Source: Candidatus Danuiimicrobium aquiferis
GTDB taxonomy: Bacteria > Omnitrophota > Omnitrophia > Omnitrophales > Danuiimicrobiaceae
Length of the DNA stretch: 64,000 nt
Assembly: GCA_001804285.1 (NCBI GenBank)
Contig: MHFR01000042.1
Span: 14,725-78,724 of the forward strand
Direction: 5' to 3'
Shown: in pieces, positions 1-31,966 of the stretch
How positions within the stretch are numbered: position 1 is the first letter of the stretch
Layout: every line of letters starts with the position of its first letter
The notes under the pieces: generated by a model
What the model saw: the letters and a program-made list of their open reading frames with translations, nothing else
Databases searched by the model: none
Told to the model about the DNA's origin: nothing
Translations under genes and position numbers: made by a program

Positions 1-85
1 AGTTTATAAAAATAGGCCGGATGAACTACGGAAAAATACACAAGATGCAAACCGCGTCAGATGGTATTTTGAGCAAATTGCAAGA

Positions 86-3000
86 TTGATTGATCAGGCA
101 GATTCTGAATTTTCAACGATGGACAGGGATCAAATTTCGCAACAGGGAATTCTAAGCACACATGAGCAATTTAAGCGGCATTTTCTCGCTTTACTCAAAC
201 GGCACGTGCAAGAATTTCAAGTTCCGATTTCTGAATATGAACTCCGGACATTCGTTTTAAAATGTCTAAAAGCTCCGGACTCACTTGATAAAGCGCTTCG
301 GGTAGAATTCAATTCCTTGTTGGATGAATTGGGAGCACTCAATTATCTCAAGATGGGCGAGTTGGCAGAAAGTTTTCAAACGTTAGCCGGCCGTTATGAA
401 GAATTAATAAAAGCCGCGGACAAAAAATGGATTCTTTCGGAGACGCGCGACCGAGTACAAATAGCGCAAAAAATTGCCGAAGACTTCGCCGGATTTGCGA
501 TAGATCCCAAGGATGAAGCGCGTAAGGTTTATGGACAAATGAGACGGAGCTCTATCCAGCGAAAAATTTTAAATCGGTTATCGCCGGTTCTTGCGGCTCA
601 TCAAGAGTTGCTTCAATCCGGATTGGAAGAGATTTACTTAAAAATTGATCTGGAAGAGAAAAATCGATTACGCAATCAATTCCATGCAAGCGATGTTCAT
701 GCCGCGGTGTTGGCTTATCTTCCGGAAGCGTTAAGGCCTTTATTTAATCTTGTGATTCAAACGATTGTTAAAAGACAGCCCGAAGATATTTTTGTTCATC
801 AGGCCGGTTTTCGGCTTGAATATTTTTTCGGACAGATCAATTTAAATGCGCGGAGCGCGGATCTTCTAAAAGATTTGAATCTTGTCGCGTATGCGGCGTG
901 GGAAATATTCCAAGCCTTGCCGCAAGTGGTGGCGGGGGCACGTTCCGAAGCGCGCAAAATTAGTGATAAGGCATCAGTCGTAAGGCATAAGAATTTAACT
1001 TATGCCTTAAGCCTTAAGCCTGAATTTTCGAGAGCCGAAGCGCGCAATACCCCGATGCGGCTTGACGTGACATTTCAAGGGACACCGTACAGATTTGAAA
1101 TGGATTCATGGAGTGTTGGCCAGAATCCCTCTCAATATCGGTTTCGATTATCGCAGGGCGTGCAGCACCGGGGCTATCTGATTGTTGATTACGATCAGCA
1201 AACAATCGGTTGGGAAGGGAAAGAACAGTTCCCGCGCGGTACGTTAATGGATCCGTTTTTAAAAGTGGCTTATGAGGCGTTGAAGGTAGATGAGAACAAA
1301 CGATCGGAAGTGCGGATGAAAGATAGTTCCGAGTTCCGGGGTAAAACAAAGAGATCAACTCGGAACTTTAAACTCGAAACTCAACCCCGTGCCCAAGTTC
1401 GTAACAATAAAGATAGTTCCAAGCAATTACCAATCGAAACGGACGAGAGTCCTCGCGAGACACAAGAGGCTCAAGCGAGGGCCGAAGCGCGGGGAATCGA
1501 ACAACAACTGGTCGGCACCTTTTTGCAAATGGCTTTATTTCATATACAGGACAACGCATCGCTTGCAGTTATTATAGAAGGTCCCGCGCCCAGAACTTTC
1601 TTTGAGGATCAAGACCAGCCGGAAGCAGTAGTTAATCGAGCGATAGGGCTTTTACAATCAATTTATGATCAAGTCAGAAGGGAGTCTCCTGACGGCAGCG
1701 GCGCTCCGTTTATTGTGAGAATGATGGAGATTTTGGGACGACCGACAGAACTGTTGCCAATGGACTTAGCTGCTGCGAAAAAATATTTTGCTTCTTCTGG
1801 TGAAGTGGCGGAAATAAAAAGCGAAAAGAAATTTGATCAATTTGAAGCACTTATGCCGGGCTGGCTTGCAAAACATCCGCCTTTTCTTTCGCAGTTAATT
1901 TCGGAACTTCCACCAATGGACGAAATCCAAAGGAAACATGGTGCCGCTCAAATACATACTGAAAATAGATATGCTGCCGGACCAATGAAACTTTTGGAAT
2001 GGAGTGTTCTGTTTGCAGGAAGTCCTCTGCGGCCCATTTATTATTATTTTGATTCAGATCCGGAATCGGGCGACATTGATAGCGTTACGGAAGTGGTTTT
2101 CGATTTAGCAGCTTATTTGAAAAGAGGGAAGTCCGGCGCGCATACGCTGATTTCGAGCGAAGAAATTGGGAGTCTATTCAAACAATTGGGACGATCTGAA
2201 GGAGCGACTCGATGGGTTATGACGGCTTCTTCTCCCGGTAGTTGGCAGAGCCGGATTAGCGTTACGCCAAGCGCTCAAGGGATGATGATTAAGATTGATG
2301 ACAATCATTTGGAATTTGATCCAAACACTCCTGACGATGAAGACGGCAACAAATTAATTAATTTTCTGAGGCAATATGGAATTGAGGAGCCGTTTTTTGG
2401 ATTGCCATTTCCGAAGCATGATGCTGCGACCACTGAGATAGCGCAATTTCTCGCCGATGTTTTTAAAGCCCGCGATGCGTTGCTTCGGAAATGGCGTATC
2501 CGGGCGAGTTTTGATCAGAGTTCCGGCCGAGTGACTTATGAAGCTGAAGGTGAAACCGTTTCTACGGATTTTGGTTACCAGGTTCCAATTCTTTCGGACA
2601 ACGGGGTTGTAACAGGGACGACGAAGGGGCCGGTTGAAGCAGAAATTAAAGACTTTCTTATGAAATTGGGAATTGATTTTAAGCCTTATGCGCAAGGGTT
2701 AACGATTCAAATGACTATCGGAAATGAGAATTATGATTTGGATGTGATCCATCATTTGCCTATCACGCTTGTAAAACTTGCTGAAGCTTTAGAAGCAAAA
2801 TCCAAAATGCCTTTCAGCGGTCACGGCCGGACAGTACCTGCGCTGGGAGTGTTAAATCAAGCAGGAGCTGTGCAATTGGTGACAGGCAGCTTAGACAAAA
2901 CCGTTCGTTTGTGGGACCTATCCACGGGTAAAGAAAGTAAGAAATTTGAAGGTTTCGCGGACGAAGTGACTGATGTTACCGTATCGCGTGACGGGCAGAA

Positions 3001-6000
3001 GGTGGCGGCGGCAAGCAAAGACGGCACGGTGAGGATTTGGAATGTCCAGTCAGATTCCGAACCAATCGTCATCGATACGCTTTCCGGGCCCCTTACTTCC
3101 ATTGATTTTTCTTTTGACGGCCAAAGGATTCTTACCGGCAGTAAACGCGGTGCGCTGCAACTTTGGGATGTGTTAATCGGTCGCTTTGTGGATGATTTGC
3201 CGATAAAGGCAAGAACAATTTTTGATGCCCAATTTTCTCCGGACGGACAAAGGATGGCTTCCTTATCCCATTCTATGGAAGATGGATTAAAGCTTTCCAT
3301 ATGGGACGTGCCTCAAAAGAAAATCATACGAACATTAGATCATGAGGCCTATCTGCAGACGTTTGCTTTTCATCCGAATGGCAAATGGTTGGTGACGGGA
3401 GATCAGGACTATCAAGTTTGTTTGTGGGACATTGAAACAGGCAGTAAACTCAGAACTTACCAGTCGGCCGTGAAACCCTTTGCTGTTGTTAATATACAAC
3501 CGCGCATTTTATCACTTGCCTTTTCTCCGGATGGGAAACTGGTTGCGGCCGGGAAACTGGATGGCAGTATTGAAGTGTGGGACGTTGAAACCGGCGGATC
3601 TCGTTACCTTTTCCAGAATTTGCCATTTAATGTTCCTACTTTAACATTTGCTCCGGATGGCCAATCTCTTATTTATTCAGGGTACAGACATAATGATACT
3701 TTTTTTGCGCCCATGCCGAGGATTATTGACTTGAGGCGCTATCCACAAACTTTCGTTTCGCATCGATATGGAAGAAGCGTTTCAAATGACGTGAGGCACT
3801 TCGTTTCAGGCGGGCAAGACATTACCCGTTCCGAAGTTCGTGAAGAAGAAGTGGCAGTCGGCAGTCAACAGTCCACAGATGTCATTGCGAGGAGCGGTAG
3901 CGACGAAGCAATCTCAGATTTGGGGATTGCTTCGGCAACACCTGGTTCACGTCTCGCAATGACGGGTAAATCCAGGGCCGAAGCGCGGGAAGGAAGCGCA
4001 CAAGTTCAAAAGAGCACACGTGCACAAGAAAATACGGAAACTTATGCGCCTATACCTGGTGCTCCTGTTCTCTTGCGAAGCAGCAGGTCTGAATCGCGGG
4101 CGGATGTTGATCCTAGGGTTTCTTCAGAACGTCATCGTGGTTCCCGACAACGCGGAGATAAAGGGAGTCGTCCATCCAGTCAAATGACAAACGGTAATGA
4201 ATATCAATTCGCGCTTCCCAAATATTTTTCGTTCCCTGGATTTTCTTTACATGGAGCGATGGATGTCGTGGATTTTCAGCAAGTATTTGGATTTGGCGGT
4301 CAGTTTTCTTTTGGATTGCAGATGGAAGAACTTGATAAAATTTTTGAAAGCTTTCGTAAGCGTATATTTTCACGAGTGGAGAAGTTTCAACAGTTCTTTA
4401 GCCGTGCCATTGCCCAAGATGCGTTTTGCGCGTTTGTTCTGGCTGGCAACGCTTTCTTTGGCTTGCCATTCCTTCGTCCAAAAATAAGCTTGGTCTGGAT
4501 TAATAGCAGAACGGCTTTTCAAGAAGATCGCAAACCTCAACACCTCTTGAGCTTCCGCCTCGGACAGCTGCTTAAAAATGATCGGCAGAATTTTATGAGT
4601 TTTCTTCGTTTCCATGTGCAAAATCTTAACACAGCACTCCATTTTATTCAACAGGAACTAACCGCTCGTTTGGAAATCAGCGGGGATATGGTGAATGGTA
4701 CGACTAATTACCACCAACCACTAATCACTAATCACGGACAAGTGAGGGCCGAAGCCCGCAACCTTGCGGCAGAAAATGGGACATTTTCTGCAATACCAAT
4801 CGAGGCGGGCAAGAGTACTTTTGATGTTTTGCCAGAAGCATCAAAACGTGCCGAAGCCCGGAAATCCGTGATATTAAGTTCGGGTAGAAACGGGAATACT
4901 CAAATTGATATGTTGAATATGGGTGAGAGGAATCCGGCGGCTCGCGTCGAGGATCTCCAAACCGAACACGCGCCCGTCTTTTCCGATGTCCATGATAATA
5001 CCGTCCCGGACTTTAATAGATTTTCCGACCTTTCCGGGTTGAAATCGTATGTAGAGCGCATCCGCTTCTTTATCAAATTCTATTTTCATCGGTTAACCCT
5101 TTTCCTCGAGCCAATAAGCCGTTATCAAAACCGTTTGATCCGCTTCCTTTTTGTAGACGACTTCCAGAATGTTATCATAGAAACGCTTTCTCGCCAAATA
5201 TCTTCCTCGATGAGCTTCTTTGGCGTTATCGGGACAGGTTACCGTTTCTTCGATCTGGCGTTGACTCAAATCCCGCTGCAAAATCCGTTTCTTGATATGT
5301 TTCGTGTATCTGAAAGTCATGAGTATCAGCTTCCATTATTAAAGAATAGGCAGCATAATAAGCCAGAAATGACTAATAATCAATATAATTATGCAGCAAA
5401 ATCAACCCGCTCCGAAGCGCGCCACGCTGAGGATAGCACCCAAGAAGTTTTTAATCAAAGCGCGCAAATGTCCTCGATACCGTCAAAATTGTTTACATCG
5501 AGGGCCGAAGCCCGCAACCTTGAAGCGGAAAATGGGACATTTTCTGCAACACCAATCGAAGCGGGCAAGAGTACTTTTGATGTTTCGACAGAAACATCAA
5601 AACGTGCCGAAGCGCGGATGCTTAAAGGTTTTAATACAGAGCAAAAAGCAATTATCGAAAAGACAGCGCATAAGCTGATCATGTTGTTCTTTTCTGACAA
5701 ATCCGTCACGGAACAGAATGCTTTGGAAAAAGATTTGATCAGCCGGATCCATCCCGCGACGTTGAGGCGGGTTATCTTTAGCAAAACAACTCTCATGACA
5801 ATCTCATGGACCCTGTGTATATCGGTCCTGCCGTTTGTTTTTCATCTATATAAATTAGTTGCTGTGTTTGGTTTTTTTGGCCTTTTTGCTCTGGGAAAGA
5901 TATTGGATCAGACCCTCAATGAAGAGACGCTGGGCTTTGTCAGCAAAGCCTATCCCGAAATATTTATCGGAACAGAATTGCCCGGATTTAAATTTGAACG

Positions 6001-9000
6001 CGGGGTCATTCATGAAATGCTGCACGTGTTGGCTAAAATGAAAAAAATTAAATATGATTCCCCATTCGCTTCCGCATTCGGCTTTCTGGCGGAGCATACT
6101 TCCTCGGATCCCGGGAAACCGCAGCTTTCCCCTTATCTGAGGCGTCCTGTTGGCAATTTGGGGGAAGGGATGGCGTTGGTTGAAAAAAATTTATCACCTC
6201 AAGAACGATGGGGGGCCTTGATTGCAAAATCGCTTTTTTCTGACAATTCTGAAAACATAACCAAACAAGATCCACGTGACTTTTTTGTCTCTTTAGCGCA
6301 TTGGTTGGAACCTGAAACGCGGGAATCCCGGGTATTGGGGGAATTATTGTCTGGGATGGCTTATGCCCTATCTCAGAAGAATTGGTTTGGTCTCGAGGAT
6401 GCGTGGGTTTATTTGGCCCGCATGGCAAAAGGAGAGCATCCTTTTGCTGTAGAAGAAGACCTAAACAATAAACAAAAAGAAAGAATATCCCATTCCAAAT
6501 TCCGCTCCGAAGCGCGCCAAGAGAGCGCACAAGAACACAAGCGCACAGGGACACAAGTAGAGATGAAAGCTGACGCGCCTGTGCCTTATGCTCCCATGCT
6601 CTTACGAAGCAGGGCCGAAGCGCGTTACAGCCGCAATAATCCAGAGCAGTCATCAATCGAAACGCGCAAGAGTCCTCGCGAGACACAAGAGGCTCAAGCG
6701 AGGGCCGAAGTGCGCGACGATAAAGACAGTTTAAAGCGTTCATCAATAGGAAGTGCACGAGAGTCCTCGATACGTTCCGAAGGGCTTGTATCGAGGGCCG
6801 AAGCCCGGACAATCTCAGAGCAAAAACGCTTTAGCCTGACACTGGAACACGTGAAGCCGCTTATTGAAAGAATTGCTGACACAGCCTATTTCCGTTGGCT
6901 TGCTAGAGATAAAGACAGCAGAACCGGTAAAAATGAAGGATTCGAAAAAGTGCAATGGCGGCGCTTGATAGATATTTCTGATCGTGCATGGGATCTTGAA
7001 AGTATGAGGCGGGAAGCATTAGGACAACTAGAAAAGTCCAATATGAACCCGGAATATTTAGAAAAAATAAAAAGCGAAACAAAAATAGAAATAATTATTT
7101 TGGAATATTTCGAGGAAGTTTTAGGGAGTTTAATCGGGAAATTAGAGTCTCCATTGAAATTGTCATTGAAAATGTTTTTGTTAAAAGCATACCCGCGTTC
7201 TGGGGAATGGACGGACTCTTTATTGGAAGAGGGAGCTATCGAAGCTGCGCGGAAAGAATATTATGACATCATTAATGAAATACTTAAGTGGCTTGATCCA
7301 ACATCAGTTTTGGAACGAGTTAATTCTCCCGAAGATTATCGAATTGATGTTTTAGGGCGGCCCAAGGATGGAGATATCCCTCGGATGGTTGACTTTCGAG
7401 GCAAACTTATCGCCAGAGAGAAAAAAGCCAAGCACCGAGCACCGTTTGCTTTTCGAAACGAACGGTTTGATACGATGATTCAAATTGGTCCCCAAGGCCT
7501 GGAAGAAGAAGAGATGCGCTTTCTTCAAAGTGCTTTTGATGAAAAGCCTGAAACTGATTCAGCCCCTACATTTTATGCCGTATTTTTTCCTCCATTTAGC
7601 TATTTATTGATCAGGAGATCGGTAATTAAGCAACGCGTAGTTTTCGATGTTGTTCCGGGTCGATGGGAGAAAGCGGTTCCGAATCCTAAAAAAATGCTCC
7701 CCTTTTTTATTAAGCGAGTGATCGATTACTATCAATTATTAGATAATCGCAAACCTCCTCAGATTTTGCTCGAGTTAGCTACGATCCCCATGCATTGGAA
7801 TGAAAGAAAGGTTCTTTTTGAGGAAAGCTATTTTGAGCCAGGTGATCCGGATTTTCGATCTGCGGCAACAACATATCCAGTACATTTTGAAAATGTATTG
7901 CGTAAGATTCGCTCCCGTTCCGAAGCGCGCCACCTTGAGGATAGCAATGATGTCATTCCCGCGAAGGCGGGAATCCAGCTGGATCCCCACTTTCGTGGGG
8001 ATGACACCGATTCCCGTGCCGAAGTACGTTCACAGATAGAAAAGACAAAACCCGAAAGTCCGATGGATTTGGTATTCGAGACTTTAGATCCACAAAAAAT
8101 AGCTGCTCAGATTGCAGCATCTAAGTATATAGAAGGTGAACTTGGAGAATTGAGCGCTCAAGTCACAAAAACAGGGCAAGGCAAACTGGATTCTGCGAAA
8201 GTCGAACTGGGCGCATTTTCGAAAAATTTAATAACAGAAATTAATAAACGTTCTGAAGTAAGACAAATTGCGGATTTTATATTTTCCGACGAAATAGAAC
8301 AGATGGCCAAGGATAGGGTGAATTTGTCATTCCCGCATGCTGTAAGCGGGAATCTATGGATCCCCGCTTTCGCGGGGATGACGGACGTGCTTATTAATCG
8401 TGCGCGTCTGGTTGTTTTCAATTCTGTTATTGGAGAGAATATTGCGATGGCCGATGAAGCATTACCAGCTTTGAGTGAGATCTCAAGCGAAGCGGCATTT
8501 TTACTCGCGCATCCGGATATTTTGAATGAAGCATATCGAATCAAATTTGGAAAAAGAACAGACAATGCAACCATACGCGCCGATCACGAATGGATCATCG
8601 GCATGGAATTTTTACCTCAAGCGTCAGATCCGCGGAGAATGGCGGCTGAACAGTTTTTGCGGAATTTAGTGCAAGCAAAAGACCGGGTGGCATTGACTTA
8701 TCAAAAAAATTCTCCTTACGCCGATATGGCAAGCGAGTTATCACAATCAATTCCGCAATTGTCACTTGTGGGGCACCGGTCAGATCTTGATCAAAAGAGA
8801 TTCGAAAGAGTATTTGGTATTTCGTATCCGTTTGTTATTGTGTCGGATAGCGTACCGTTTAAGACATCAACATGGCGGAAAAACGGAGTTCGCATTAATC
8901 CATATATGGCGCTTCGGTTGAAATTGGAATTTTCACAATTTATACGGCTGACACAATTTGCTGTCGAAGCCGGACTTCTCCGGAAGCAAATAGAAGAAAT

Positions 9001-9112
9001 TTCCGGAGTTTTTCCAGAATTAACACCTGAAATTCTTAATTCGGCTATAGATCTTCTGAATGAGCTTGCTCAGACGGAACTTGTTAGGCAGGCAATTAAT
9101 CGGGCGGCGTAA
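86..9112 (+). CDS. Giant (~3000 aa) multidomain protein with a central 7-blade-type WD40 beta-propeller; interrupted in-frame by repeat modules, MITEs and antisense TA cassettes
   Basis: A single 9027-nt open frame cannot arise by chance at this GC. WD40 repeats (LWD/IWN/VWD motifs with GH..WD spacing) lie around aa 930-1200. Non-repetitive segments look like ordinary globular protein. The start is uncertain: TTG at 86 or ATG at 119. A terminator hairpin plus T-run follows at 9176-9232. Confidence 0.6.
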   Translation: MIDQADSEFSTMDRDQISQQGILSTHEQFKRHFLALLKRHVQEFQVPISEYELRTFVLKCLKAPDSLDKALRVEFNSLLDELGALNYLKMGELAESFQTLAGRYEELIKAADKKWILSETRDRVQIAQKIAEDFAGFAIDPKDEARKVYGQMRRSSIQRKILNRLSPVLAAHQELLQSGLEEIYLKIDLEEKNRLRNQFHASDVHAAVLAYLPEALRPLFNLVIQTIVKRQPEDIFVHQAGFRLEYFFGQINLNARSADLLKDLNLVAYAAWEIFQALPQVVAGARSEARKISDKASVVRHKNLTYALSLKPEFSRAEARNTPMRLDVTFQGTPYRFEMDSWSVGQNPSQYRFRLSQGVQHRGYLIVDYDQQTIGWEGKEQFPRGTLMDPFLKVAYEALKVDENKRSEVRMKDSSEFRGKTKRSTRNFKLETQPRAQVRNNKDSSKQLPIETDESPRETQEAQARAEARGIEQQLVGTFLQMALFHIQDNASLAVIIEGPAPRTFFEDQDQPEAVVNRAIGLLQSIYDQVRRESPDGSGAPFIVRMMEILGRPTELLPMDLAAAKKYFASSGEVAEIKSEKKFDQFEALMPGWLAKHPPFLSQLISELPPMDEIQRKHGAAQIHTENRYAAGPMKLLEWSVLFAGSPLRPIYYYFDSDPESGDIDSVTEVVFDLAAYLKRGKSGAHTLISSEEIGSLFKQLGRSEGATRWVMTASSPGSWQSRISVTPSAQGMMIKIDDNHLEFDPNTPDDEDGNKLINFLRQYGIEEPFFGLPFPKHDAATTEIAQFLADVFKARDALLRKWRIRASFDQSSGRVTYEAEGETVSTDFGYQVPILSDNGVVTGTTKGPVEAEIKDFLMKLGIDFKPYAQGLTIQMTIGNENYDLDVIHHLPITLVKLAEALEAKSKMPFSGHGRTVPALGVLNQAGAVQLVTGSLDKTVRLWDLSTGKESKKFEGFADEVTDVTVSRDGQKVAAASKDGTVRIWNVQSDSEPIVIDTLSGPLTSIDFSFDGQRILTGSKRGALQLWDVLIGRFVDDLPIKARTIFDAQFSPDGQRMASLSHSMEDGLKLSIWDVPQKKIIRTLDHEAYLQTFAFHPNGKWLVTGDQDYQVCLWDIETGSKLRTYQSAVKPFAVVNIQPRILSLAFSPDGKLVAAGKLDGSIEVWDVETGGSRYLFQNLPFNVPTLTFAPDGQSLIYSGYRHNDTFFAPMPRIIDLRRYPQTFVSHRYGRSVSNDVRHFVSGGQDITRSEVREEEVAVGSQQSTDVIARSGSDEAISDLGIASATPGSRLAMTGKSRAEAREGSAQVQKSTRAQENTETYAPIPGAPVLLRSSRSESRADVDPRVSSERHRGSRQRGDKGSRPSSQMTNGNEYQFALPKYFSFPGFSLHGAMDVVDFQQVFGFGGQFSFGLQMEELDKIFESFRKRIFSRVEKFQQFFSRAIAQDAFCAFVLAGNAFFGLPFLRPKISLVWINSRTAFQEDRKPQHLLSFRLGQLLKNDRQNFMSFLRFHVQNLNTALHFIQQELTARLEISGDMVNGTTNYHQPLITNHGQVRAEARNLAAENGTFSAIPIEAGKSTFDVLPEASKRAEARKSVILSSGRNGNTQIDMLNMGERNPAARVEDLQTEHAPVFSDVHDNTVPDFNRFSDLSGLKSYVERIRFFIKFYFHRLTLFLEPISRYQNRLIRFLFVDDFQNVIIETLSRQISSSMSFFGVIGTGYRFFDLALTQIPLQNPFLDMFRVSESHEYQLPLLKNRQHNKPEMTNNQYNYAAKSTRSEARHAEDSTQEVFNQSAQMSSIPSKLFTSRAEARNLEAENGTFSATPIEAGKSTFDVSTETSKRAEARMLKGFNTEQKAIIEKTAHKLIMLFFSDKSVTEQNALEKDLISRIHPATLRRVIFSKTTLMTISWTLCISVLPFVFHLYKLVAVFGFFGLFALGKILDQTLNEETLGFVSKAYPEIFIGTELPGFKFERGVIHEMLHVLAKMKKIKYDSPFASAFGFLAEHTSSDPGKPQLSPYLRRPVGNLGEGMALVEKNLSPQERWGALIAKSLFSDNSENITKQDPRDFFVSLAHWLEPETRESRVLGELLSGMAYALSQKNWFGLEDAWVYLARMAKGEHPFAVEEDLNNKQKERISHSKFRSEARQESAQEHKRTGTQVEMKADAPVPYAPMLLRSRAEARYSRNNPEQSSIETRKSPRETQEAQARAEVRDDKDSLKRSSIGSARESSIRSEGLVSRAEARTISEQKRFSLTLEHVKPLIERIADTAYFRWLARDKDSRTGKNEGFEKVQWRRLIDISDRAWDLESMRREALGQLEKSNMNPEYLEKIKSETKIEIIILEYFEEVLGSLIGKLESPLKLSLKMFLLKAYPRSGEWTDSLLEEGAIEAARKEYYDIINEILKWLDPTSVLERVNSPEDYRIDVLGRPKDGDIPRMVDFRGKLIAREKKAKHRAPFAFRNERFDTMIQIGPQGLEEEEMRFLQSAFDEKPETDSAPTFYAVFFPPFSYLLIRRSVIKQRVVFDVVPGRWEKAVPNPKKMLPFFIKRVIDYYQLLDNRKPPQILLELATIPMHWNERKVLFEESYFEPGDPDFRSAATTYPVHFENVLRKIRSRSEARHLEDSNDVIPAKAGIQLDPHFRGDDTDSRAEVRSQIEKTKPESPMDLVFETLDPQKIAAQIAASKYIEGELGELSAQVTKTGQGKLDSAKVELGAFSKNLITEINKRSEVRQIADFIFSDEIEQMAKDRVNLSFPHAVSGNLWIPAFAGMTDVLINRARLVVFNSVIGENIAMADEALPALSEISSEAAFLLAHPDILNEAYRIKFGKRTDNATIRADHEWIIGMEFLPQASDPRRMAAEQFLRNLVQAKDRVALTYQKNSPYADMASELSQSIPQLSLVGHRSDLDQKRFERVFGISYPFVIVSDSVPFKTSTWRKNGVRINPYMALRLKLEFSQFIRLTQFAVEAGLLRKQIEEISGVFPELTPEILNSAIDLLNELAQTELVRQAINRAA
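937..1047 (+). repeat. Repeat cluster 1 inside giant ORF: 2 copies of degenerate direct repeat (core CCGAAGCGCG) flanking a ~80-nt palindromic module
   Basis: The two repeat copies are 'cgttccgaagcgcgc' and 'gagagccgaagcgcgc'. The spacer holds a perfect 11-bp hairpin, taaggcataag/cttatgcctta. The translation is in frame: ARSEAR...SRAEAR. Confidence 0.6.
1300..1497 (+). repeat. Repeat cluster 2: 3 degenerate repeats and 2 modules (~73 and ~77 nt); second module is a near-identical copy of one at 6655-6715
   Basis: Repeat copies are 'cgatcggaagtgcgg', 'cccaagttcgt' and 'gggccgaagcgcgg'. Module 1 holds a 10-bp hairpin, gttccgagtt/aactcggaac. The module 'caatcgaaacg..agtcctcgcgagacacaagaggctcaagcgagggccgaag' recurs about 95% identical at 6655. 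Confidence 0.6.
3828..4100 (+). repeat. Repeat cluster 3: 3 degenerate repeats (ccgaagttcgtg / gggccgaagcgcgg / tctgaatcgcgg) with ~130 and ~100-nt modules, immediately upstream of antisense TA cassette 1
   Basis: In-frame translations are RSEVR, RAEAR and RSESR. The module peptide 'YAPIPGAPVLLRSSRSESR' resembles 'PVPYAPMLLRSRAEAR' at 6570-6625. Confidence 0.5.
4113..4373 (-). CDS. Type II toxin, RelE/ParE family
   Basis: 86 aa. The C-terminal region reads 'NPRHPSLHVKKIQGTKNIWEARIDIHYRLSFDWMDDSLYLRVVGNHDDV', typical of RelE/ParE. The start overlaps the stop of the upstream antitoxin by ATGA. It lies antisense and fully inside the giant ORF. Confidence 0.7.
   Translation of the reverse strand: MKIYAYESFQKFYQVLPSAIQKKTDRQIQILAENPRHPSLHVKKIQGTKNIWEARIDIHYRLSFDWMDDSLYLRVVGNHDDVLKKP
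4370..4651 (-). CDS. Antitoxin, DUF2281-like, partner of RelE/ParE toxin
   Basis: 93 aa, immediately upstream of and overlapping the toxin gene. The motif 'EAQEVLRFAIFLKSR' resembles DUF2281 antitoxins. Confidence 0.5.
   Translation of the reverse strand: MNKMECCVKILHMETKKTHKILPIIFKQLSEAEAQEVLRFAIFLKSRSAINPDQAYFWTKEWQAKESVASQNKRAKRILGNGTAKELLKLLHS
4740..4866 (+). repeat. Repeat cluster 4 between the two TA cassettes: 'gagggccgaagcccgcaacc' + ~90-nt module + 'cgtgccgaagcccgg'
   Basis: The module 'gaaaatgggacattttctgcaataccaatcgaggcgggcaagagtacttttgatgtttt' recurs about 95% identical at 5533-5590. The motif gggccgaagccc can form a GGGC-CGAA-GCCC hairpin. Confidence 0.6.
4874..5089 (-). CDS. 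DUF2283-family protein (putative antitoxin of DUF4258/DUF2283 pair)
   Basis: 71 aa. 'MKIEFDKEADALYIRF...GKDGRVFGLEILDAS' matches the DUF2283 signature. It follows the DUF4258 gene with a 3-nt gap. Confidence 0.7.
   Translation of the reverse strand: MKIEFDKEADALYIRFQPGKVGKSIKVRDGIIMDIGKDGRVFGLEILDASRRIPLTHIQHINLSIPVSTRT
5093..5320 (-). CDS. DUF4258-family protein (putative toxin of DUF4258/DUF2283 pair)
   Basis: 75 aa. 'MTFRYTKHIKKRILQRDLSQRQIEETV...VLITAYWLEE' matches DUF4258. It lies antisense and fully inside the giant ORF. Confidence 0.7.
   Translation of the reverse strand: MTFRYTKHIKKRILQRDLSQRQIEETVTCPDNAKEAHRGRYLARKRFYDNILEVVYKKEADQTVLITAYWLEEKG
5400..5620 (+). repeat. Repeat cluster 5: 'gctccgaagcgcgcc' / 'gagggccgaagcccgcaacc' / 'cgtgccgaagcgcgg' with ~80 and ~85-nt modules (duplicate of module at 4760-4845)
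   Basis: Directly read from sequence. In-frame translations are RSEAR, RAEAR and RAEAR. Confidence 0.6.
6500..6815 (+). repeat. Repeat cluster 6: 5 degenerate repeats with ~95, ~75, ~60 and ~15-nt modules (includes copy of ESPRETQEAQA module)
   Basis: Repeat copies are 'gctccgaagcgcgcc', 'agggccgaagcgcg', 'gagggccgaagtgcgcg', 'cgttccgaaggg' and 'gagggccgaagcccgg'. Confidence 0.6.
7915..8035 (+). repeat. Repeat cluster 7: 'cgttccgaagcgcgcc' ... 'cgtgccgaagtacgt' flanking an in-frame copy of MITE family A
   Basis: The in-frame translation is 'RSEARHLEDSNDVIPAKAGIQLDPHFRGDDTDSRAEVR'. Confidence 0.6.
7951..8005 (+). repeat. MITE family A copy (double hairpin gtcattcccgc-gaag-gcgggaatcc / ggatcccc-actttc-gtggggatgac) inserted in-frame in giant ORF
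   Basis: The same element occurs in intergenic regions at 11529, 17724, 25221, 31967 and 39010. It has outer gtcat..atgac inverted ends. Confidence 0.8.
8326..8382 (+). repeat. MITE family A copy inserted in-frame in giant ORF (translates SFPHAVSGNLWIPAFAGMTDV)
   Basis: The sequence is 'gtcattcccgcatgctgtaagcgggaatctatggatccccgctttcgcggggatgac', almost identical to the intergenic copy at 31967-32030. Confidence 0.8.
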
Positions 9113-9175
9113 AACATGGAAATTCATAAAAAACAGTAGGCAGTTGCCAGTCGGCAGTAAGCAATTAGCACTAAG

Positions 9176-9232
9176 AAAAAAGGGGACACACAGCTCGACC
9201 AATTCGAACAAGCTGTATGTCCCCTTTTTTTA
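9176..9232 (+). terminator. Rho-independent terminator after giant ORF
   Basis: The stem is ggggacacacagc / gctgtatgtcccc, followed by a run of 7 T. It is nested in a larger imperfect palindrome spanning 9140-9280. Confidence 0.7.
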
Positions 9233-9436
9233 CTTTTTGCTATCCTGTATGTGCAGACTGCTGCCTGCCGACTGCTTACTCTTTTCCCCAACTTACTTAT
9301 TGACTAAATTTATCTGCATATTATAATCATACCACTTTTTAAAGACTTTTTATTCCACTACAAAGTACCAGTTTTTTAATGTTTCAAAAGCTTAAAAAGT
9401 TCTATTTATAAGCTACTTAAAAAGAGAAGGCTTACT

Positions 9437-11528: not shown

Positions 11529-11595
11529 GTCATTCCCGCGAAAGCGGGAATCCAGACGAATAGCTGGATGCCCGCTAAAAACATGCGGGCATGAC
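11529..11595 (+). repeat. MITE family A copy (intergenic)
   Basis: 'gtcattcccgcgaaagcgggaatccagacgaatagctggatgcccgctaaaaacatgcgggcatgac'. Confidence 0.8.
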
Positions 11596-12349: not shown

Positions 12350-13564
12350 GTGATCAAGCAAATGTTAAAAGATAGAATTCTGACTGATAAAGAAAGGAAG
12401 AATTTATCGATTTTGGAAGTCATCCGAAAGAACGGTCCGATTTCTCGAACTGATATTTCCAAAATCACAGAATTAAACATCGTCACTGTTTCCAACTATG
12501 TCAACCATTACATCAAGAAAGGCCTTGTCATTGAAGGCGAGCTTGATGAGTCGACCGGCGGGCGGAAGCCTGTGCTGGTTGAGCTGAATCCGAAGGCCGG
12601 TTATATCGTAGGGGTCGGACTCAATATGCTGAATATGGTGGGCGTTCTTGTCGACCTCGAAATCAATGTGATTACCGAAGTAAAACAGGAACGTATTCCG
12701 GAAAACTCTGAAATGGTGATCAATAAAATGGTTGATATGGCAGCCGAGATCATTGAGAAATCCGGAATTGAGAAAGACAAGCTGGTGGGTGTCGGTGTAG
12801 GCATTCCCGGAATTATCGATGAACGTGGGCGCACGATTCGTTGGCCGCAGAGTCTGGGAGAAAAAGACATTTCCGTATGTCTTTCGATCAAAGATTCATT
12901 TGAAAAGCGGCTCAACATTCCGACGTTTGTCGAAAACGATGCAAATGCCGCTGTGTTGGGCGAAAAATGGCTGGGCCTTGACCGCGATGTCAGGCACATG
13001 ATGTATATGTTTTCCGGTGTTGGTGTGGGCATTATCATCAACGGGGAAATTTATCGCGGGGTATCGGGTGCGGCCGGCGAACTCGGAATTTCAAGCTTTA
13101 AAGCCGATAAGAAGGAAATTTTAGACATGACTTATGGGCTTGGCCGATGGGAGATGGATCTTGGCATGACCCGGGAGGCGCAGGAAAAAGTTGCTGCGGG
13201 TCGGGGATCTATGATGAAAGATTTGGCCGGCGGAAATCCGAAGAATATCGGGTTCAGACATCTTGTGCAGGCGGTGAAAGAGAAAGATCCGCTTGCGATT
13301 GAAATTGTTGAGCAGGGTGGTTATGCGCTCGGGAAGAAAATCGCCTTTATGGTCAATTTCCTGAATCCGGAAATTGTTGTGATTGGCGGCGGAATCGAAG
13401 ACTGTGGTGCAACGCTCCTTGACGGGATCAAAAACGCTGTCAAAGAATGGTCCGTTGAAGAAGCGGCGACGCACGTGAAAATTATTCCGTCTGCGTTTGG
13501 TGAAAATGCCGTTGCATTGGGCGTCGTCGGCCTTGTGGCCCGCGAAGTTTTTGCGCAGGCGTAA
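12350..13564 (+). CDS. ROK-family transcriptional regulator / sugar kinase
   Basis: GTG start follows an RBS 'aaggagg'. An N-terminal HTH 'ISRTDISKITELNIVTVSNYV' is followed by a ROK kinase fold with glycine-rich motifs. Confidence 0.7.
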   Translation: MIKQMLKDRILTDKERKNLSILEVIRKNGPISRTDISKITELNIVTVSNYVNHYIKKGLVIEGELDESTGGRKPVLVELNPKAGYIVGVGLNMLNMVGVLVDLEINVITEVKQERIPENSEMVINKMVDMAAEIIEKSGIEKDKLVGVGVGIPGIIDERGRTIRWPQSLGEKDISVCLSIKDSFEKRLNIPTFVENDANAAVLGEKWLGLDRDVRHMMYMFSGVGVGIIINGEIYRGVSGAAGELGISSFKADKKEILDMTYGLGRWEMDLGMTREAQEKVAAGRGSMMKDLAGGNPKNIGFRHLVQAVKEKDPLAIEIVEQGGYALGKKIAFMVNFLNPEIVVIGGGIEDCGATLLDGIKNAVKEWSVEEAATHVKIIPSAFGENAVALGVVGLVAREVFAQA

Positions 13565-13604
13565 AGAAGTTTTAAGCAGCGAGCGCCTTTCGTAAAACAT
13601 TCTG

Positions 13605-13740
13605 GGACTCCTCCCCCTTAATGGGGGAGGAGTCCTAACAAGCTGGCGGATCCGCCAGCCTGTTGGGCGGAGATAAAGGCGGGGGTTAGAATATTAGATT
13701 ACCCCCCATCCCTACCTTCCCCCACAAGGGGGGAAGGGGG
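13605..13740 (+). repeat. Cluster of GC-rich perfect hairpins (ggactcctccccc-ttaat-gggggaggagtcc; gctggcggatccgccagc; ccttcccccc-acaa-ggggggaagg); probable terminator/REP-like elements
   Basis: The inverted repeats were read directly from the sequence. They lie downstream of the ROK gene. Confidence 0.7.
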
Positions 13741-15946: not shown

Positions 15947-16297
15947 ATGGGAACAAAGAGAAACAAACAGTGTTTAAAGATGATGGTTGCATTGATCATA
16001 TTTTTTGTGTTGCATCAGGGCTGGACATGCGCAGCGGCCGGTGAAAAAGATAATGATTTAAGTAAAAAGGTTGATCAGCAAGTGTTCAATATGGCGTGTC
16101 CGATTATAAAAGGAATTACTCTGAACGATGTAGATCGCATTATTCAAGAGTTTCGGCAATCGAAAATATATATATGGGTAAAAGAAAAATATTCCGGTAT
16201 CGATCAAAAAATCGACGAGTATAAGAAAGGTATCATTGAGTTGAAGGCGAAGTGCGAACAAAAAACCGGAAGCGAGAAGAACACTAACTCTGGGTAA
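15947..16297 (+). CDS. Small secreted hypothetical protein
   Basis: 116 aa with an N-terminal signal peptide. It is not an ACP, since it lacks the DSL motif. Confidence 0.35.
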   Translation: MGTKRNKQCLKMMVALIIFFVLHQGWTCAAAGEKDNDLSKKVDQQVFNMACPIIKGITLNDVDRIIQEFRQSKIYIWVKEKYSGIDQKIDEYKKGIIELKAKCEQKTGSEKNTNSG

Positions 16298-16328
16298 TTA
16301 TTTAGAGATTTGAAGTTATTAATAAATT

Positions 16329-16376
16329 CCCTCACCCTAACCCTCTCCCTCGGGGAGAGGGCAGGGGTGAGGGGTG
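16329..16376 (+). repeat. GC-rich nested palindrome family B (ccctcaccc..ccctctccc-tcgg-ggagaggg..gggtgaggg)
   Basis: The same architecture occurs at 26835-26881. An expanded copy sits in-frame in the GH1 gene at 22981-23140. Confidence 0.8.
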
Positions 16377-16406
16377 ATCCGGGCGAATAAATCAAAAAGG
16401 GAATCC

Positions 16407-17618
16407 ATGAATAAAGTTGTTATTACCGGCATTGGAGTGGTTTCGCCGATCGGGAACAATGCGGATGAATTTACAAGATCCCTGAAACAGGGAATCGTGG
16501 GCCGCCGGAGCCTTCATGAAGCCAATCCGGAGCGGTTCAAAGAGTTTGATGCGGATGAAATAGCGTTTCCTCTCTCCGGTTTTAAGCCGCCTCCTTACGC
16601 GAAAATTCTCGATCCGAATATTCAATATTCCATGGCTGCAACGGAAGAAGCGCTTTCAGATAGCCGGCTTGATTTATCATGGGTGGATCATGAACGGATC
16701 GGAATTGCGGTCAGCTCAAGCAAGGGCGGGATGTACACGTTTGAACATTATAATGAACGGATGCAGAATAGGCCGAGCGCTTTGGTGGCGGCACGCGTTT
16801 ATGCAAATTTACTTCCGAATATTGCGACGCAATGGATTGCGCGGCATTGGGAACTCCGCGGACCGGCAAAAGTGGCGGTGGCGGCTTGCGCAACGGGTTT
16901 ATTTGCAATCATCGAAGGAATTCGGATGATTGAACAGGGAGAGGCCGATTGCTGTATTGCGGGTGCGGGAGATGCCTCGCTAACGAGACTGATGCTTGCC
17001 GGTTACCGGCAAATGGGAGTTTTGTCAAAAAATAAAATGATCCGGCCGTATGATCTGCGGCGTGACGGGTTTCTGATCGGAGAAGGGGCGGGCATTTTAA
17101 TTCTGGAAAGCGAGGTGTATGCGAAAGCACGGAAAGCCAATTGTTATGGGAAAGTGCGCGCGCATGTTTATGGGTTTGAACCGTCTCATCCGATTTCATT
17201 TGATGAGCGGAGTAACGGCCTTGAACGATGTTTGCAGGAACTTTTGAAGCGGGGAGGGATTAAGCCGCGCGAAATTGATTATTTAAATTTACATGGTACC
17301 GGGACGCAAAGCGGCGACCGTTACGAAACGGCGCAAATCAAAAAAGCCTTTGGACAGGATGCGTATCAGATTCCGGCAAGCTCAACAAAATCGATGACGG
17401 GACACATGGTCGGCGCTTCGGGCGCCGTGGAAGTGATTACTTCTTTGATTGCGATGCGGGACGGGTTTATTCCGCCGACAGCAAATTTGGAAATACCGGA
17501 TCCGGTTTGCGATCTTGATTGCACGCCGCTTCGTTCCAAGGATAAGAAAATCAATTTGGCATGCTCGATTTCACTCGGTTTCGGCGGTCAACTGGCGGCA
17601 ATATTGCTTGAGAAGTAA
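16407..17618 (+). CDS. Beta-ketoacyl-ACP synthase I/II-type condensing enzyme (FabF/FabB-like) in bio locus
   Basis: It has the Cys-His-His triad: 'AACATG', 'HGTGTQSGD' and 'GHMVGASGAVE'. The start is ATG 16407, 'MNKVVITGIGVVSPIG'. Confidence 0.8.
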   Translation: MNKVVITGIGVVSPIGNNADEFTRSLKQGIVGRRSLHEANPERFKEFDADEIAFPLSGFKPPPYAKILDPNIQYSMAATEEALSDSRLDLSWVDHERIGIAVSSSKGGMYTFEHYNERMQNRPSALVAARVYANLLPNIATQWIARHWELRGPAKVAVAACATGLFAIIEGIRMIEQGEADCCIAGAGDASLTRLMLAGYRQMGVLSKNKMIRPYDLRRDGFLIGEGAGILILESEVYAKARKANCYGKVRAHVYGFEPSHPISFDERSNGLERCLQELLKRGGIKPREIDYLNLHGTGTQSGDRYETAQIKKAFGQDAYQIPASSTKSMTGHMVGASGAVEVITSLIAMRDGFIPPTANLEIPDPVCDLDCTPLRSKDKKINLACSISLGFGGQLAAILLEK

Positions 17619-17623
17619 ACGCT

Positions 17624-17880
17624 TGTCTCATTAACTCCTCGGCGCTCGGACAACGTCCGCCAAGGGCGGCCGAACTCGCGGCGAGGAGTTAATGAGACAA
17701 CTGGTTTACATCTACTCATAATTGTCATTCCCGCGGAAGCGGGAATCCAGACGCCGCTTTGGGCTCCCCGGACTTGTCCGGGGGGGAATGGCGCCCGAAG
17801 GGCGAGCCGAGCAGGGAACGAAAAAATTCCCAGCGAGGCCAGATGTTGGAAGGTGCCCCGGGCTTGCCCGGGGGGAAACC
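17624..17880 (+). repeat. Repeat-packed intergenic region: 19-bp-stem palindrome (ttgtctcattaactcctcg...cgaggagttaatgagacaa), half copy of MITE family A (17724-17750), and two ccccgg..ccgggg hairpins
   Basis: The inverted repeats were read directly from the sequence. The 'ccgaactcgcgg' core recurs at 22054-22080 and 22165-22176. Confidence 0.7.
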
Positions 17881-25220: not shown

Positions 25221-25322
25221 GTCATTCCCGCGAAAGCGGAAATCCATAGTTCGATGGATCTCCGCTTAAAGCACGGCGGAGCAGTGCTGCTTCGCTGCAT
25301 GAGGGGATGACATAAAGTACGG
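25221..25322 (+). repeat. MITE family A variant with expanded second hairpin
   Basis: 'gtcattcccgcgaaagcggaaatcc...ggatctccgc...gaggggatgac'. Confidence 0.7.
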
Positions 25323-31940: not shown

Positions 31941-31966
31941 AAGCGGTTTCGTAAGTTCGCACAAGT

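What the first reader, a model, noticed from the sequence alone, without database searches (positions are those of the whole stretch)
900..8300. Clusters of a degenerate 12-nt direct repeat (CCGAAGCGCG core) bounding short palindromic modules, all in-frame inside a 9-kb gene
The sequence shows at least 22 copies of a degenerate motif such as 'gagggccgaagcgcgg', 'cgttccgaagcgcgc' or 'ccgaagcccg'. They form 7 clusters at 937, 1300, 3828, 4740, 5400, 6500 and 7915. Every copy is read in the same frame as R-[A/S]-E-[A/V]-R.

Within a cluster, consecutive copies lie about 87-104 nt apart, giving a repeat-spacer-repeat layout. The 75-130-nt modules between them contain perfect hairpins. Examples are taaggcataag/cttatgcctta and gttccgagtt/aactcggaac.

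Several modules recur elsewhere in the gene at about 95% nucleotide identity: 1440-1495 matches 6655-6715, and 4775-4845 matches 5533-5600. Identity at synonymous positions means these are recent copies of a mobile unit. Ancient protein repeats would have diverged there.

The architecture resembles in-frame Rickettsia-type palindromic elements, or an array built by repeated insertion at a self-regenerating target motif. Here it is confined to one giant ORF and shares its boundary motif with larger gene cassettes. I know of no described system with this combination. My inference is a site-specific insertion system whose attachment site is the CCGAAGCGCG-like motif. Its landing pad is a tolerant giant gene, and selection keeps only in-frame, stop-free insertions.
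Basis: partly seen in the sequence, partly recalled or inferred. Interest (0 to 1): 0.9.

Follow-up and report, generated by a model that had tools for sequence, protein, structure and literature searches.

The report
Junction motif with in-frame hairpin spacers
The repeated 12-15-nt "motif" encodes a conserved five-residue junction signal (Arg-Ser/Ala-Glu-x-Arg) between the domains of a giant Omnitrophota protein; in this species short translated hairpin-rich DNA modules have multiplied at those junctions, which gives the first candidate processing points for these giant proteins.

Summary
There are 18 strict and 2 degenerate copies of R-[S/A]-E-[A/V]-R, all in frame, at 8 junctions of one giant gene. 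This gene is the 3' 9 kb of an ORF of more than 7,050 aa in the Omnitrophota MAG "Ca. Danuiimicrobium aquiferis".

The motif is not primarily a DNA attachment site. Homologous giant proteins of two other Omnitrophota carry 9 single RSExR motifs each. These sit at domain boundaries, including the same two boundaries of a shared HExxH domain. They use varied synonymous codons and have no modules. The motif is therefore an old peptide-level junction signal, and I infer that it is a polyprotein processing site.

The 75-132-nt modules between motif copies are additions seen in this lineage and not in the two homologues. They are always stop-free and in frame. Their substitutions show no codon-position bias. 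They are hairpin-rich and are shared between junctions at 73-95% identity. Two modules enclose a dispersed palindrome of the GTCAT...ATGAC type; a third copy lies outside any module, in the C-terminal domain. The AKAGIQ-type version of this palindrome also occurs in four intergenic spacers.

The first motif of a junction encodes Ser, as in the relatives. The module-borne copies encode Ala, always as GCC.

How the modules spread is unresolved. It could be motif-targeted insertion or motif-mediated recombination. No recombinase was found, and no close relatives or whole genome were available.

The parts
1..9112 (+). The 3' 9 kb of a giant gene. The ORF is open from the window start and ORF-listing runs it from 86. 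Its product exceeds 7,050 aa and runs off the contig ends in the assemblies that hold it.
941..1045 (+). Junction 1: RSEAR (941-955), module M1 (956-1030, hairpin TAAGGCATAAG/CTTATGCCTTA), RAEAR (1031-1045).
   Evidence: fold z -3.4
1301..1492 (+). Junction 2: RSEVR (1301), module M2a (hairpin GTTCCGAGTT/AACTCGGAAC), degenerate RAQVR (1388), module M2b (family C), RAEAR (1478).
2804..3697 (+). WD40 beta-propeller domain, the only Pfam-recognised cargo domain in this part of the gene.
3827..4099 (+). Junction 3: RSEVR (3827), module M3a enclosing an 83-nt GTCAT...ATGAC palindrome (3881-3963), RAEAR (3974), module M3b (family B), degenerate RSESR (4085).
4745..4861 (+). Junction 4: RAEAR, module M4 (family A, two hairpins), RAEAR. 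It is 92% identical to 5501-5617, flanking motifs included.
   Evidence: (z -5.1)
5408..5617 (+). Junction 5: RSEAR (5408), module M5a, RAEAR (5501), module M5b (family A), RAEAR (5603). The HExxH domain follows directly.
5618..6502 (+). Domain unit 'S5': hydrophobic helices plus an invariant HEMxH. The predicted fold is closest to gluzincin zinc proteases. It is 37-43% identical to P0013, P0014 and P0015, and in the two giant homologues (P0014, P0015) single RSExR motifs flank it.
6503..6808 (+). Junction 6: RSEAR (6503), M6a (family B), RAEAR (6611), M6b (family C), RAEVR (6701), M6c, RAEAR (6794).
7916..8029 (+). Junction 7: RSEAR (7916), module M7 enclosing a 54-nt dispersed palindrome (7952-8005, read as VIPAKAGIQ...FRGDD), RAEVR (8015).
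   Evidence: z -3.9
8249..8263 (+). Junction 8: a single RSEVR (CGT TCT GAA GTA AGA) with no module. It lies directly before the conserved C-terminal domain.
8326..8382 (+). 57-nt in-frame copy of the dispersed palindrome inside the variable start of the C-terminal domain, with no motif on its right. It matches the intergenic copy at 31966-32030 at 93-100% (two segments).
8264..9109 (+). Conserved C-terminal domain of the protein family (ends ...RQAINRAA*).
11529..11595 (+). Intergenic copy of the GTCAT...ATGAC palindrome, not flanked by the motif. Further copies lie at 17724, 25221-25311 and 31967-32030.

Best explanation
**The motif (shown).** The 'degenerate 12-nt repeat' is the coding sequence of a pentapeptide junction motif, R-[S/A]-E-[A/V/M/I/L/T]-R. 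It marks the start of each domain unit in a family of Omnitrophota giant proteins. These proteins have a conserved N-terminal domain, a conserved C-terminal domain, and variable cargo domains in between. In other species the motif occurs once per boundary and is conserved as a peptide.

**What the motif does (inferred).** I infer that it is a proteolytic processing site of a polyprotein. It may be cut by the embedded thermolysin-like HExxH domain. The always hydrophobic or small fourth residue would suit the P1' preference of that protease class.

**The modules (shown).** In Ca. Danuiimicrobium aquiferis, 7 of the 8 junctions in this 9 kb have been extended downstream of the ancestral Ser-type motif. 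Each extension is 1-3 short modules, and each module is followed by a new Ala-type motif copy (GCC GAA GCS CGN).
- The modules are translated: they are stop-free and their lengths are multiples of 3.
- Their peptides are unconstrained.
- They are hairpin-rich.
- They fall into a few families copied between junctions.
- Two of them enclose one of the GTCAT...ATGAC palindromes.

**Why they persist (inferred).** The junctions behave like intergenic spacers inside an ORF. Anything bracketed by two processing motifs would be cut out of the mature proteins, so such insertions would be nearly neutral. This would explain why only motif-bracketed, in-frame modules persist.

**How they spread (inferred, unresolved).** Either recombination or gene conversion through the shared 15-nt motif, or motif-targeted transposition with a duplication of about 10 bp (CCGAAGCGCG).
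For: **Peptide-level motif**
- P0014 and P0015 each have 9 RSExR motifs at 200-900 aa spacing. Paralogous domains start right after the motif.
- Their DNA (L008, L007) uses CGG, CGC, CGT or AGG for the first Arg. Ser is TCC, TCT, TCG or AGT, Glu is GAA or GAG, and the last Arg uses six different codons.
- The motif lies at the same position before and after the S5 domain in the window, P0014 and P0015.
- Other family members have RSEVR, RSEMR, RAELR or RSESR just after the N-terminal domain. Minimal members with only the N- and C-terminal domains have none.

**Modules are additions**
- They are absent from the homologues.
- Junctions of the homologues are less structured than the rest of their genes. 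In the window, all the strongest hairpins of the gene lie in the clusters.
- The first motif of a junction encodes Ser in 7 of 8 cases. Later motifs encode Ala in 11 of 12, Fisher P = 8e-4.
- Ala is GCC in 12 of 12 copies against a background of 0.15.

**Translated but unconstrained**
- There are 0 in-frame stops in 1,032 nt (P about 8e-9), against 9-26 in the other frames.
- Substitutions are even over codon positions.
- Composition is rich in Ser, Thr, Glu and Ala.

**Dispersed palindrome**
- It occurs in the gene and in four intergenic spacers.

**Protease candidate**
- HExxH is invariant.
- S5 is present in all three RSExR-type giants and absent from the two SLG-type giants.

**Literature**
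Against: - There is no experimental or proteomic evidence of cleavage.
- P0022 has the S5 domain but no RSExR motif.
- Synonymous sites of the motif are strikingly uniform in this genome: GCC 12/12 and GAA 19/19. Even the distant relatives prefer CGY-TCC (P about 1e-3 to 3e-3). A nucleotide-level role, as a recombination or insertion site or an RNA signal, is therefore not excluded.
- No relative at intermediate divergence was found, so insertion events could not be seen directly.
- The upstream part of the gene (more than 12 kb) and the rest of the genome were not available. Restriction of modules A-E to giant genes rests on 64 kb plus one foreign fragment (P0012).
Confidence: 0.6

Rival explanations
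1. A dedicated site-specific insertion system uses the CCGAAGCGCG-like DNA motif as a self-regenerating attachment site. Mobile hairpin modules, and perhaps larger cassettes, land there. Selection then keeps the in-frame, stop-free ones.
For: - Module-borne motif copies are uniform at synonymous sites: GCC 12/12 and GAA 19/19.
- The Ser-first, Ala-later pattern fits a duplication starting at CC, with the element ending in ...(A/C)G(G/T)G.
- All copies share one orientation.
- Several modules end in a stem (CCTCG...CGAGG) abutting GCCGAAGC.
- The homologues show single-motif 'empty' junctions.
- The same motif bounds large domain units.
Against: - No integrase or transposase gene was recognised. 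The window's ORFs were only partly screened.
- The motif is conserved as a peptide, with codon variation, in species that have no modules.
- Module families do not share clear common termini.
- The one demonstrably dispersed element, the GTCAT palindrome, inserts without the motif.
- An exact-pattern scan of JGI metagenome contigs found only chance matches in GC-rich DNA.
Confidence: 0.2
2. The modules are selected RNA-level elements. Hairpins placed at domain junctions of a very long mRNA would stabilise segments against exonucleases or pause ribosomes for co-translational folding or cleavage. REP hairpins play this kind of role between cistrons of operons.
For: - Eleven of 13 regions folded (12 modules plus the 8249-8395 stretch) give negative z-scores, and five are below -3.
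- The strongest structures of the gene all lie at junctions. They resemble the hairpins in the true intergenic spacers downstream.
- In the family A pair, all three stem substitutions keep pairing through G-U.
- In the E-type 3' hairpin the stems are conserved while the loops differ.
Against: - The homologues manage without hairpins at their junctions, and those junctions are less structured than average.
- Two modules (M3b, M6a) show no excess structure.
- There are too few copies for a covariation test.
Confidence: 0.12
3. The clusters are relics of former intergenic regions, with their REP or terminator hairpins. They would have become translated when neighbouring genes fused into one ORF.
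For: - Junctions carry the same dispersed palindrome as the intergenic spacers.
- The domain units are gene-sized, at 73-778 aa.
- One unit starts with Met right after the motif (RAEAR|MLKG).
Against: - Minimal family members consist of the N- and C-terminal domains only. Cargo therefore entered the middle of a gene rather than by end-to-end fusion.
- The homologues have bare single motifs at the same boundaries.
- Module families are copied between junctions.
Confidence: 0.05
4. These are ordinary ancient protein repeats or low-complexity linkers, with no DNA-level story.
For: The motif itself is an old peptide motif.
Against: - Module bodies show no third-position excess of substitutions.
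- Nucleotide identity between copies is 92-95%.
- The modules are absent from the homologues.
- They contain nested dispersed palindromes.
Confidence: 0.03

Closest known systems
Rickettsia palindromic elements (RPEs) and other in-frame MITEs
   Same: Both are short palindromic repeats that occur in coding and non-coding DNA and are tolerated in frame inside ORFs as extra peptide segments. Here the GTCAT...ATGAC palindromes at 3881, 7952 and 8326 behave this way, with AKAGIQ-type copies also in intergenic DNA.
   Different: Most modules (families A-E) were seen only at junctions of the giant gene. They are bracketed by a conserved peptide motif that exists independently of them. RPEs have no such regenerated flanking motif and are not confined to inter-domain junctions of one protein family.
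REP/REPIN elements mobilised by RAYT (Y1 HUH) transposases
   Same: The dispersed palindrome is a doublet of two inverted short hairpins inside a longer stem, is mostly extragenic, and has several copies per 64 kb.
   Different: No RAYT gene was identified and the whole genome was not available. Copies also occur in frame inside a gene. Copy number and termini are not characterised.
Polyproteins with recurrent protease cleavage motifs (viral polyproteins, repeated-core RiPP precursors)
   Same: A short recurrent motif lies exactly at unit boundaries. A protease-like domain is embedded in the same polypeptide. Spacer peptides are bracketed by two motif copies.
   Different: Cleavage is only inferred. 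The host is a bacterium and the gene exceeds 21 kb. The spacers are hairpin-rich DNA-level repeats, not evolved linkers.
Junction motifs of polymorphic toxin systems (CdiA VENN, Rhs PxxxxDPxGL)
   Same: From my own knowledge of these systems, a short conserved peptide motif demarcates the exchangeable parts of very large proteins. Its coding sequence can also serve as the homology for cassette replacement, and in Rhs it marks an autoproteolytic site. This is a precedent for one motif acting at both the protein and the DNA level.
   Different: Those systems have one junction per protein and swap a C-terminal toxin. Here there are many junctions per protein, with internal cargo and mini-modules. 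There is no sequence or domain relationship.
Integron attC cassettes, CRISPR arrays and translational bypass elements (T4 gene 60, Magnusiomyces byps)
   Same: They share a repeat-module-repeat layout in one orientation. For the bypass elements, hairpin inserts between matching codons are a further resemblance.
   Different: - No integrase or cas genes were found.
- The repeat is 15 nt, non-palindromic and coding.
- The modules are stop-free with lengths that are multiples of 3, so they need no bypass or excision.

Membership tests
In-frame palindromic MITE (RPE-like) | A dispersed repeat family present in both coding and non-coding DNA | tested here: met
   AKAGIQ-type GTCAT palindrome: 2 copies in the giant gene and 4 intergenic; a related GTCAT...ATGAC palindrome of another sequence type at 3881 was found only in the gene. 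Modules A-E: found only in the giant gene within 64 kb, plus one foreign protein fragment, P0012.
In-frame palindromic MITE (RPE-like) | Palindromic, hairpin-forming sequence | tested here: met
   Eleven of 13 regions folded give negative fold z-scores, five below -3. Inverted repeats I1, I3, I4 and I6.
In-frame palindromic MITE (RPE-like) | Inserted in frame without interrupting the ORF | tested here: met
   All 12 modules have lengths that are multiples of 3 and contain 0 stops. Two of the three intragenic palindromes are 54 and 57 nt (3881 is 83 nt), against 64-91 nt for the three measured intergenic copies.
In-frame palindromic MITE (RPE-like) | Presence/absence polymorphism between orthologues | tested here: inconclusive
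   The modules are absent from homologues at 37-43% protein identity. They are identical in all six near-clonal assemblies. No relatives of intermediate divergence were found.
REP/REPIN-RAYT | An associated Y1 (HUH) transposase gene flanked by REPs | not tested
   Only the giant gene, its four downstream neighbours and a few genes with precomputed Pfam hits were screened, and none is a transposase. The whole genome was not available.
REP/REPIN-RAYT | An inverted doublet of short imperfect palindromes, mostly extragenic | tested here: met
   The structure GTCATTCCCGC-loop-GCGGGAATCCA...TGGATCCCCGC-loop-GCGGGGATGAC. Four of 6 AKAGIQ-type copies are intergenic.
Polyprotein with cleavage-site motif | A recurrent short motif at the boundaries of independently folding units, conserved as a peptide | tested here: met
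   Domains start directly after the motif, and its codons vary between species.
Polyprotein with cleavage-site motif | A cognate protease | tested here: inconclusive
   The embedded S5 domain has an invariant HExxH and a gluzincin-like predicted fold. It co-occurs with RSExR in 3 of 3 giants and is absent from 2 SLG-type giants, but P0022 has S5 without the motif.
Polyprotein with cleavage-site motif | Demonstrated cleavage at the motif | not testable with these tools
   This needs proteomics or biochemistry.
Site-specific insertion or cassette system (integron-like) | A site-specific recombinase associated with the array | tested here: inconclusive
   None was seen next to the gene's 3' end. 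The 5' end of the gene and the rest of the genome were not available.
Site-specific insertion or cassette system (integron-like) | A recombination site conserved at the DNA level | tested here: inconclusive
   Within this genome the answer is yes, with GCC 12/12 and GAA 19/19. In related species the site varies at synonymous positions, with only a codon preference for CGY-TCC.
CRISPR array | Repeats of 23-50 nt with unique spacers, non-coding, with cas genes nearby | tested here: not met
   The repeat is 15 nt, is translated in frame, and its 'spacers' recur elsewhere. There was no Rfam hit and no cas gene among the screened neighbours.

The most novel reading that the evidence does not exclude
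The R-S-E-x-R coding motif could be both the processing site and the recombination or insertion site of an in-frame cassette-accretion mechanism that builds Omnitrophota giant genes. On this reading, domain-sized cargo (0.2-2.3 kb) and mini-modules are all inserted at a self-regenerating junction between a conserved N-terminal and C-terminal scaffold, which exists on its own as proteins of about 750-960 aa. Different lineages would use different junction motifs (RSExR or xSLG).
Probability: 0.15. Interest if true: 0.9.

Novelty: new variant of a known kind. Interest (0 to 1): 0.66.

Why it matters
Omnitrophota carry some of the longest genes known. Whether their products act as one chain or are cut into many proteins is an open question. 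West-Roberts et al. state that the lack of known cleavage points blocked further analysis (10.1101/2023.11.21.568195).

A short, conserved, lineage-specific junction motif that brackets every domain unit gives concrete candidate cut sites. It also sits in the same polypeptide as a thermolysin-like domain. These sites can be tested by proteomics or in vitro, and they can be used to split giant proteins for structure prediction.

The motif-bracketed hairpin modules add a second point. They suggest that inter-domain junctions of such genes behave like intergenic DNA for selfish or regulatory repeats. They may also hint at how cargo is added in frame.

Tried and rejected
- **Word-indexed protein search, 1,799 aa of the giant protein.** It returned only a fragment of the protein itself.
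- **Word-indexed search with concatenated linkers.** It returned only P0012. P0012 and P0001 could not be traced to contigs.
- **First genome-contig scan, N-proximal part of the gene.** Nothing was found, so the source species' gene is not in that collection.
- **C-terminal-domain alignments A1 and A2.** They were too divergent for pattern scanning.
- **Metagenome scan with TCCGAAGCGCGCN{68,98}GNGCCGAAGYNCG.** It gave 42 loci, all unrelated chance matches in DNA of 55-73% GC. The scan is uninformative, except that it shows this DNA layout is not widespread there.
- **Rfam.** There were no relevant families.
- **TRF.** It found only trivial micro-repeats, so the arrays are not tandem repeats in the TRF sense.
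- **Pfam on the inter-junction units.** Nothing was found beyond WD40.
- **Loci of P0033 and P0035.** No DNA was held for them.
- **Literature searches.** Searches for 'Omnitrophota polyprotein' and for the palindrome-derived peptides gave no papers.
- **Ideas rejected.**
  - CRISPR-like array.
  - Translational bypass or RNA excision: the modules are stop-free and in frame.
  - Assembly artefact: six assemblies agree.
  - The + frame RSEAR at 62816 as a further copy: one search lists only - strand ORFs of 120 aa or more there.
- **Claim toned down.** SLG and RSExR are not exactly co-positional at the first junction. The alignment puts them only within a few tens of residues of each other.

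Full report
**Source and context**

The window comes from the Omnitrophota MAG species "Candidatus Danuiimicrobium aquiferis". Exact matches of SecY, PolA and an ADP/ATP carrier carry the names Omnitrophica bacterium RIFCSPLOWO2_12_FULL_44_17 and Ca. Danuiimicrobium aquiferis.

ORF 86..9112 is only the 3' end of a giant gene. In two longer assemblies the called product is 7,008 and 7,050 aa and still runs off the contig end. The frame stays open upstream of the window and contains a further RSEAR.

Six independent assemblies are identical over the gene apart from one SNP. The sequence is therefore not an assembly artefact. No strain polymorphism is available either.

**Checking the observation**

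- A six-frame scan finds 18 strict R[AS]E[AV]R copies. All are in the reading frame of the giant gene. Two degenerate copies are RAQVR at 1388 and RSESR at 4085.
- About 0.03 copies would be expected from amino-acid composition.
- The only other strict hit in 64 kb is at 62816, in the + frame where one search lists only - strand ORFs of 120 aa or more.
- The exact core CCGAAGCGCG occurs 9 times, always on the + strand and always in the gene.
- With one mismatch there are 22 hits against 6.2 expected, and 14 of them are the in-gene copies.
- The copies form seven clusters at the stated places, plus a single copy at 8249. Spacing is 87-147 nt.
- The quoted hairpins exist.
- The quoted recurrences are real. 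1431-1487 matches 6654-6710 at 94.7%. 4744-4862 matches 5500-5618 at 92.4%. A third family matches at 73%.

**What the motif is**

A HMMER search of 1.84 billion representatives with the last 1,156 aa found 13 hits. Among them are two giant proteins of other Omnitrophota, P0014 (4,071 aa) and P0015 (3,425 aa).

- Each carries nine RSE[V/M/A/T/I/L]R motifs, spaced 200-900 aa apart and in single copy, apart from one pair 9 residues apart in P0015. Recognisable paralogous domains begin directly after the motif.
- The domain between window clusters 5 and 6 ("S5") is 37-38% identical to a domain in both proteins. In all three the motif sits at the same place before and after the domain.
- Their genes were recovered from GTDB genomes as L008 and L007, both Omnitrophota MAGs.
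- In those genes the motif is written with many codons. The first Arg is CGG, CGC, CGT or AGG. Ser is TCC, TCT, TCG or AGT. Glu is GAA or GAG. The last Arg uses six codons.
- Those junctions have no modules and are less structured than the rest of the gene.

The motif is therefore an old signal selected at the peptide level, at domain junctions.

A search with the N-terminal domain found 23 family members, and every one that carries a name is from Omnitrophota.

- Some are proteins of about 750-960 aa that consist of the N- and C-terminal domains only and lack the motif. One, P0029, is a stand-alone gene on a 145-kb contig.
- Others show RSEVR, RSEMR, RAELR or RSESR just after the N-terminal domain.
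- Two giants that share both terminal domains (P0017, P0018) lack RSExR. They show a different recurrent short motif, [x]SLG. It lies near the first junction, though not exactly at the same position.

**What the motif may do (inference)**

- Its HExxH is invariant.
- S5 is present in all three RSExR-type giants and absent from the two SLG-type giants. P0022 has S5 without the motif.
- From established knowledge, thermolysin-like enzymes prefer hydrophobic P1' residues. This would fit the always hydrophobic or small fourth residue of the motif.
- A processing role for RSExR is therefore plausible and testable, but it is not shown.

**What the modules are**

- Twelve modules, 1,032 nt in all, lie between motif copies.
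- Every one has a length that is a multiple of 3. None has an in-frame stop, while the other frames have 9-26 stops (P about 8e-9). They are therefore translated.
- Differences between copies of a family are spread evenly over codon positions, at 34, 23 and 32. Their composition is rich in Ser, Thr, Glu and Ala. The peptides are therefore unconstrained.
- Eleven of 13 regions folded (the 12 modules plus 8249-8395) fold better than shuffles, five with z below -3. All the strongest structures in the gene lie in the clusters, and they resemble the hairpins of the true intergenic spacers downstream.
- Module M7 (palindrome at 7952) and a stretch inside the C-terminal domain (8326) contain a 54-57-nt doublet palindrome, GTCATTCCCGC...GCGGGGATGAC. 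The same palindrome lies in four intergenic spacers (11529, 17724, 25221, 31967), without any flanking motif. A related GTCAT...ATGAC palindrome sits in module M3a (3881).
- These palindromes are absent from the four other Omnitrophota loci examined.

**Polarity of the arrays**

- The first motif of a junction encodes Ser, as in all 18 copies of the relatives, in 7 of 8 junctions.
- Later copies encode Ala in 11 of 12 cases (Fisher P = 8e-4). Ala is always GCC, against a background of 0.15. Glu is always GAA.
- The arrays therefore read as an ancestral junction motif followed by units of module plus new motif.
- The duplicated unit of family A includes both flanking motifs.
- Many modules begin with a similar x-x-[K/E]-D-S. 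Several end in a stem, CCTCG...CGAGG, that abuts GCCGAAGC.

**Mechanism of spread**

This is not resolved. The Ser/Ala polarity and the uniform synonymous sites fit either of two routes:

- Insertion at the motif, with a duplication starting at CC.
- Copying between junctions by recombination through the 15-nt motif.

No recombinase was seen, although only part of the window was screened. The upstream 12 kb or more and the rest of the genome could not be reached. No relatives of intermediate divergence exist in the searched collections. A pattern scan of JGI metagenome contigs returned only chance matches. One foreign fragment, P0012, carries related modules of families B and A in a different order. 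The modules therefore exist in at least one other sequence context.

**Verdict**

The claim of a DNA attachment site and a dedicated insertion system is not.

The motif is a conserved, lineage-specific peptide junction signal of a family of Omnitrophota giant proteins. I infer that it marks processing sites, and that the modules are translated, motif-bracketed spacers that have proliferated at these junctions in one lineage.

Noticed in passing
window 11529-11595, 17724-17750, 25221-25311, 31967-32030: A dispersed REPIN-like doublet palindrome, GTCATTCCCGC..GCGGGAATCCA...TGGATCCCCGC..GCGGGGATGAC, lies in four intergenic spacers. The copy at 31967 is nested in a longer inverted repeat (GAAGCGGTTTCGTAAG / CTTATGAAACCGCTTC). 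The three complete intergenic copies measured are 64-91 nt, not multiples of 3. The two intragenic copies of the same type are 54 and 57 nt.
   Followed up: partly
P0017 and P0018 (homologues found): These giant proteins share the same N- and C-terminal domains but lack RSExR. They carry a different recurrent short motif, [G/A/N][R/K/A/S/N]SLG, 4 times in P0017; P0018 has 9 SLG tripeptides, about 7 in that context. They have no HExxH domain. This suggests lineage-specific junction motifs.
   Followed up: partly
P0029 (locus L051 10001-12895), P0041, P0044: Some family members of about 750-960 aa consist only of the conserved N- and C-terminal domains, with no cargo and no junction motif. P0029 is a stand-alone gene among housekeeping genes. 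The giant versions look like this scaffold with cargo added in the middle.
   Followed up: partly
window 9113-9436: The spacer after the giant gene holds a strong terminator-like hairpin (9176-9230, 95% complementary). Around it is an outer inverted repeat (9148-9171 / 9251-9274) whose arm resembles 3852-3880 inside module M3a.
   Followed up: no
window 13546-13700, 16286-16400, 17606-17720: These intergenic stretches contain very stable hairpins. Their GC-corrected MFE residuals are -17 to -25 kcal/mol per 100 nt, stronger than anything inside the giant gene.
   Followed up: no
window 48968-51436: This gene encodes an 823-aa protein that UniRef names 'ADP,ATP carrier protein'. That would fit a host-dependent, energy-parasitic lifestyle, as proposed for Omnitrophota.
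   Followed up: no
P0001 (fragment of the same protein from another data set): It ends in ...AKAGIQLDQIGRASCRERG, which looks like read-through into an Illumina adapter (AGATCGGAAGAGC). It otherwise differs from the window protein at four residues and has the same module complement.
   Followed up: no
L007 8093-8149 (P0015 aa 3106-3124): Two junction motifs lie only 9 residues apart (RSEMR-ASTVASEAG-RSEVR). In P0014 a 70-aa Lys-rich spacer sits between RSEVR (695) and RSEMR (770). Motif-spacer-motif layouts without hairpins therefore exist in relatives.
   Followed up: no
window 6048-6812 (- strand): A 254-aa antisense ORF overlaps junction 6 and the end of the S5 domain. It is probably spurious.
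   Followed up: no
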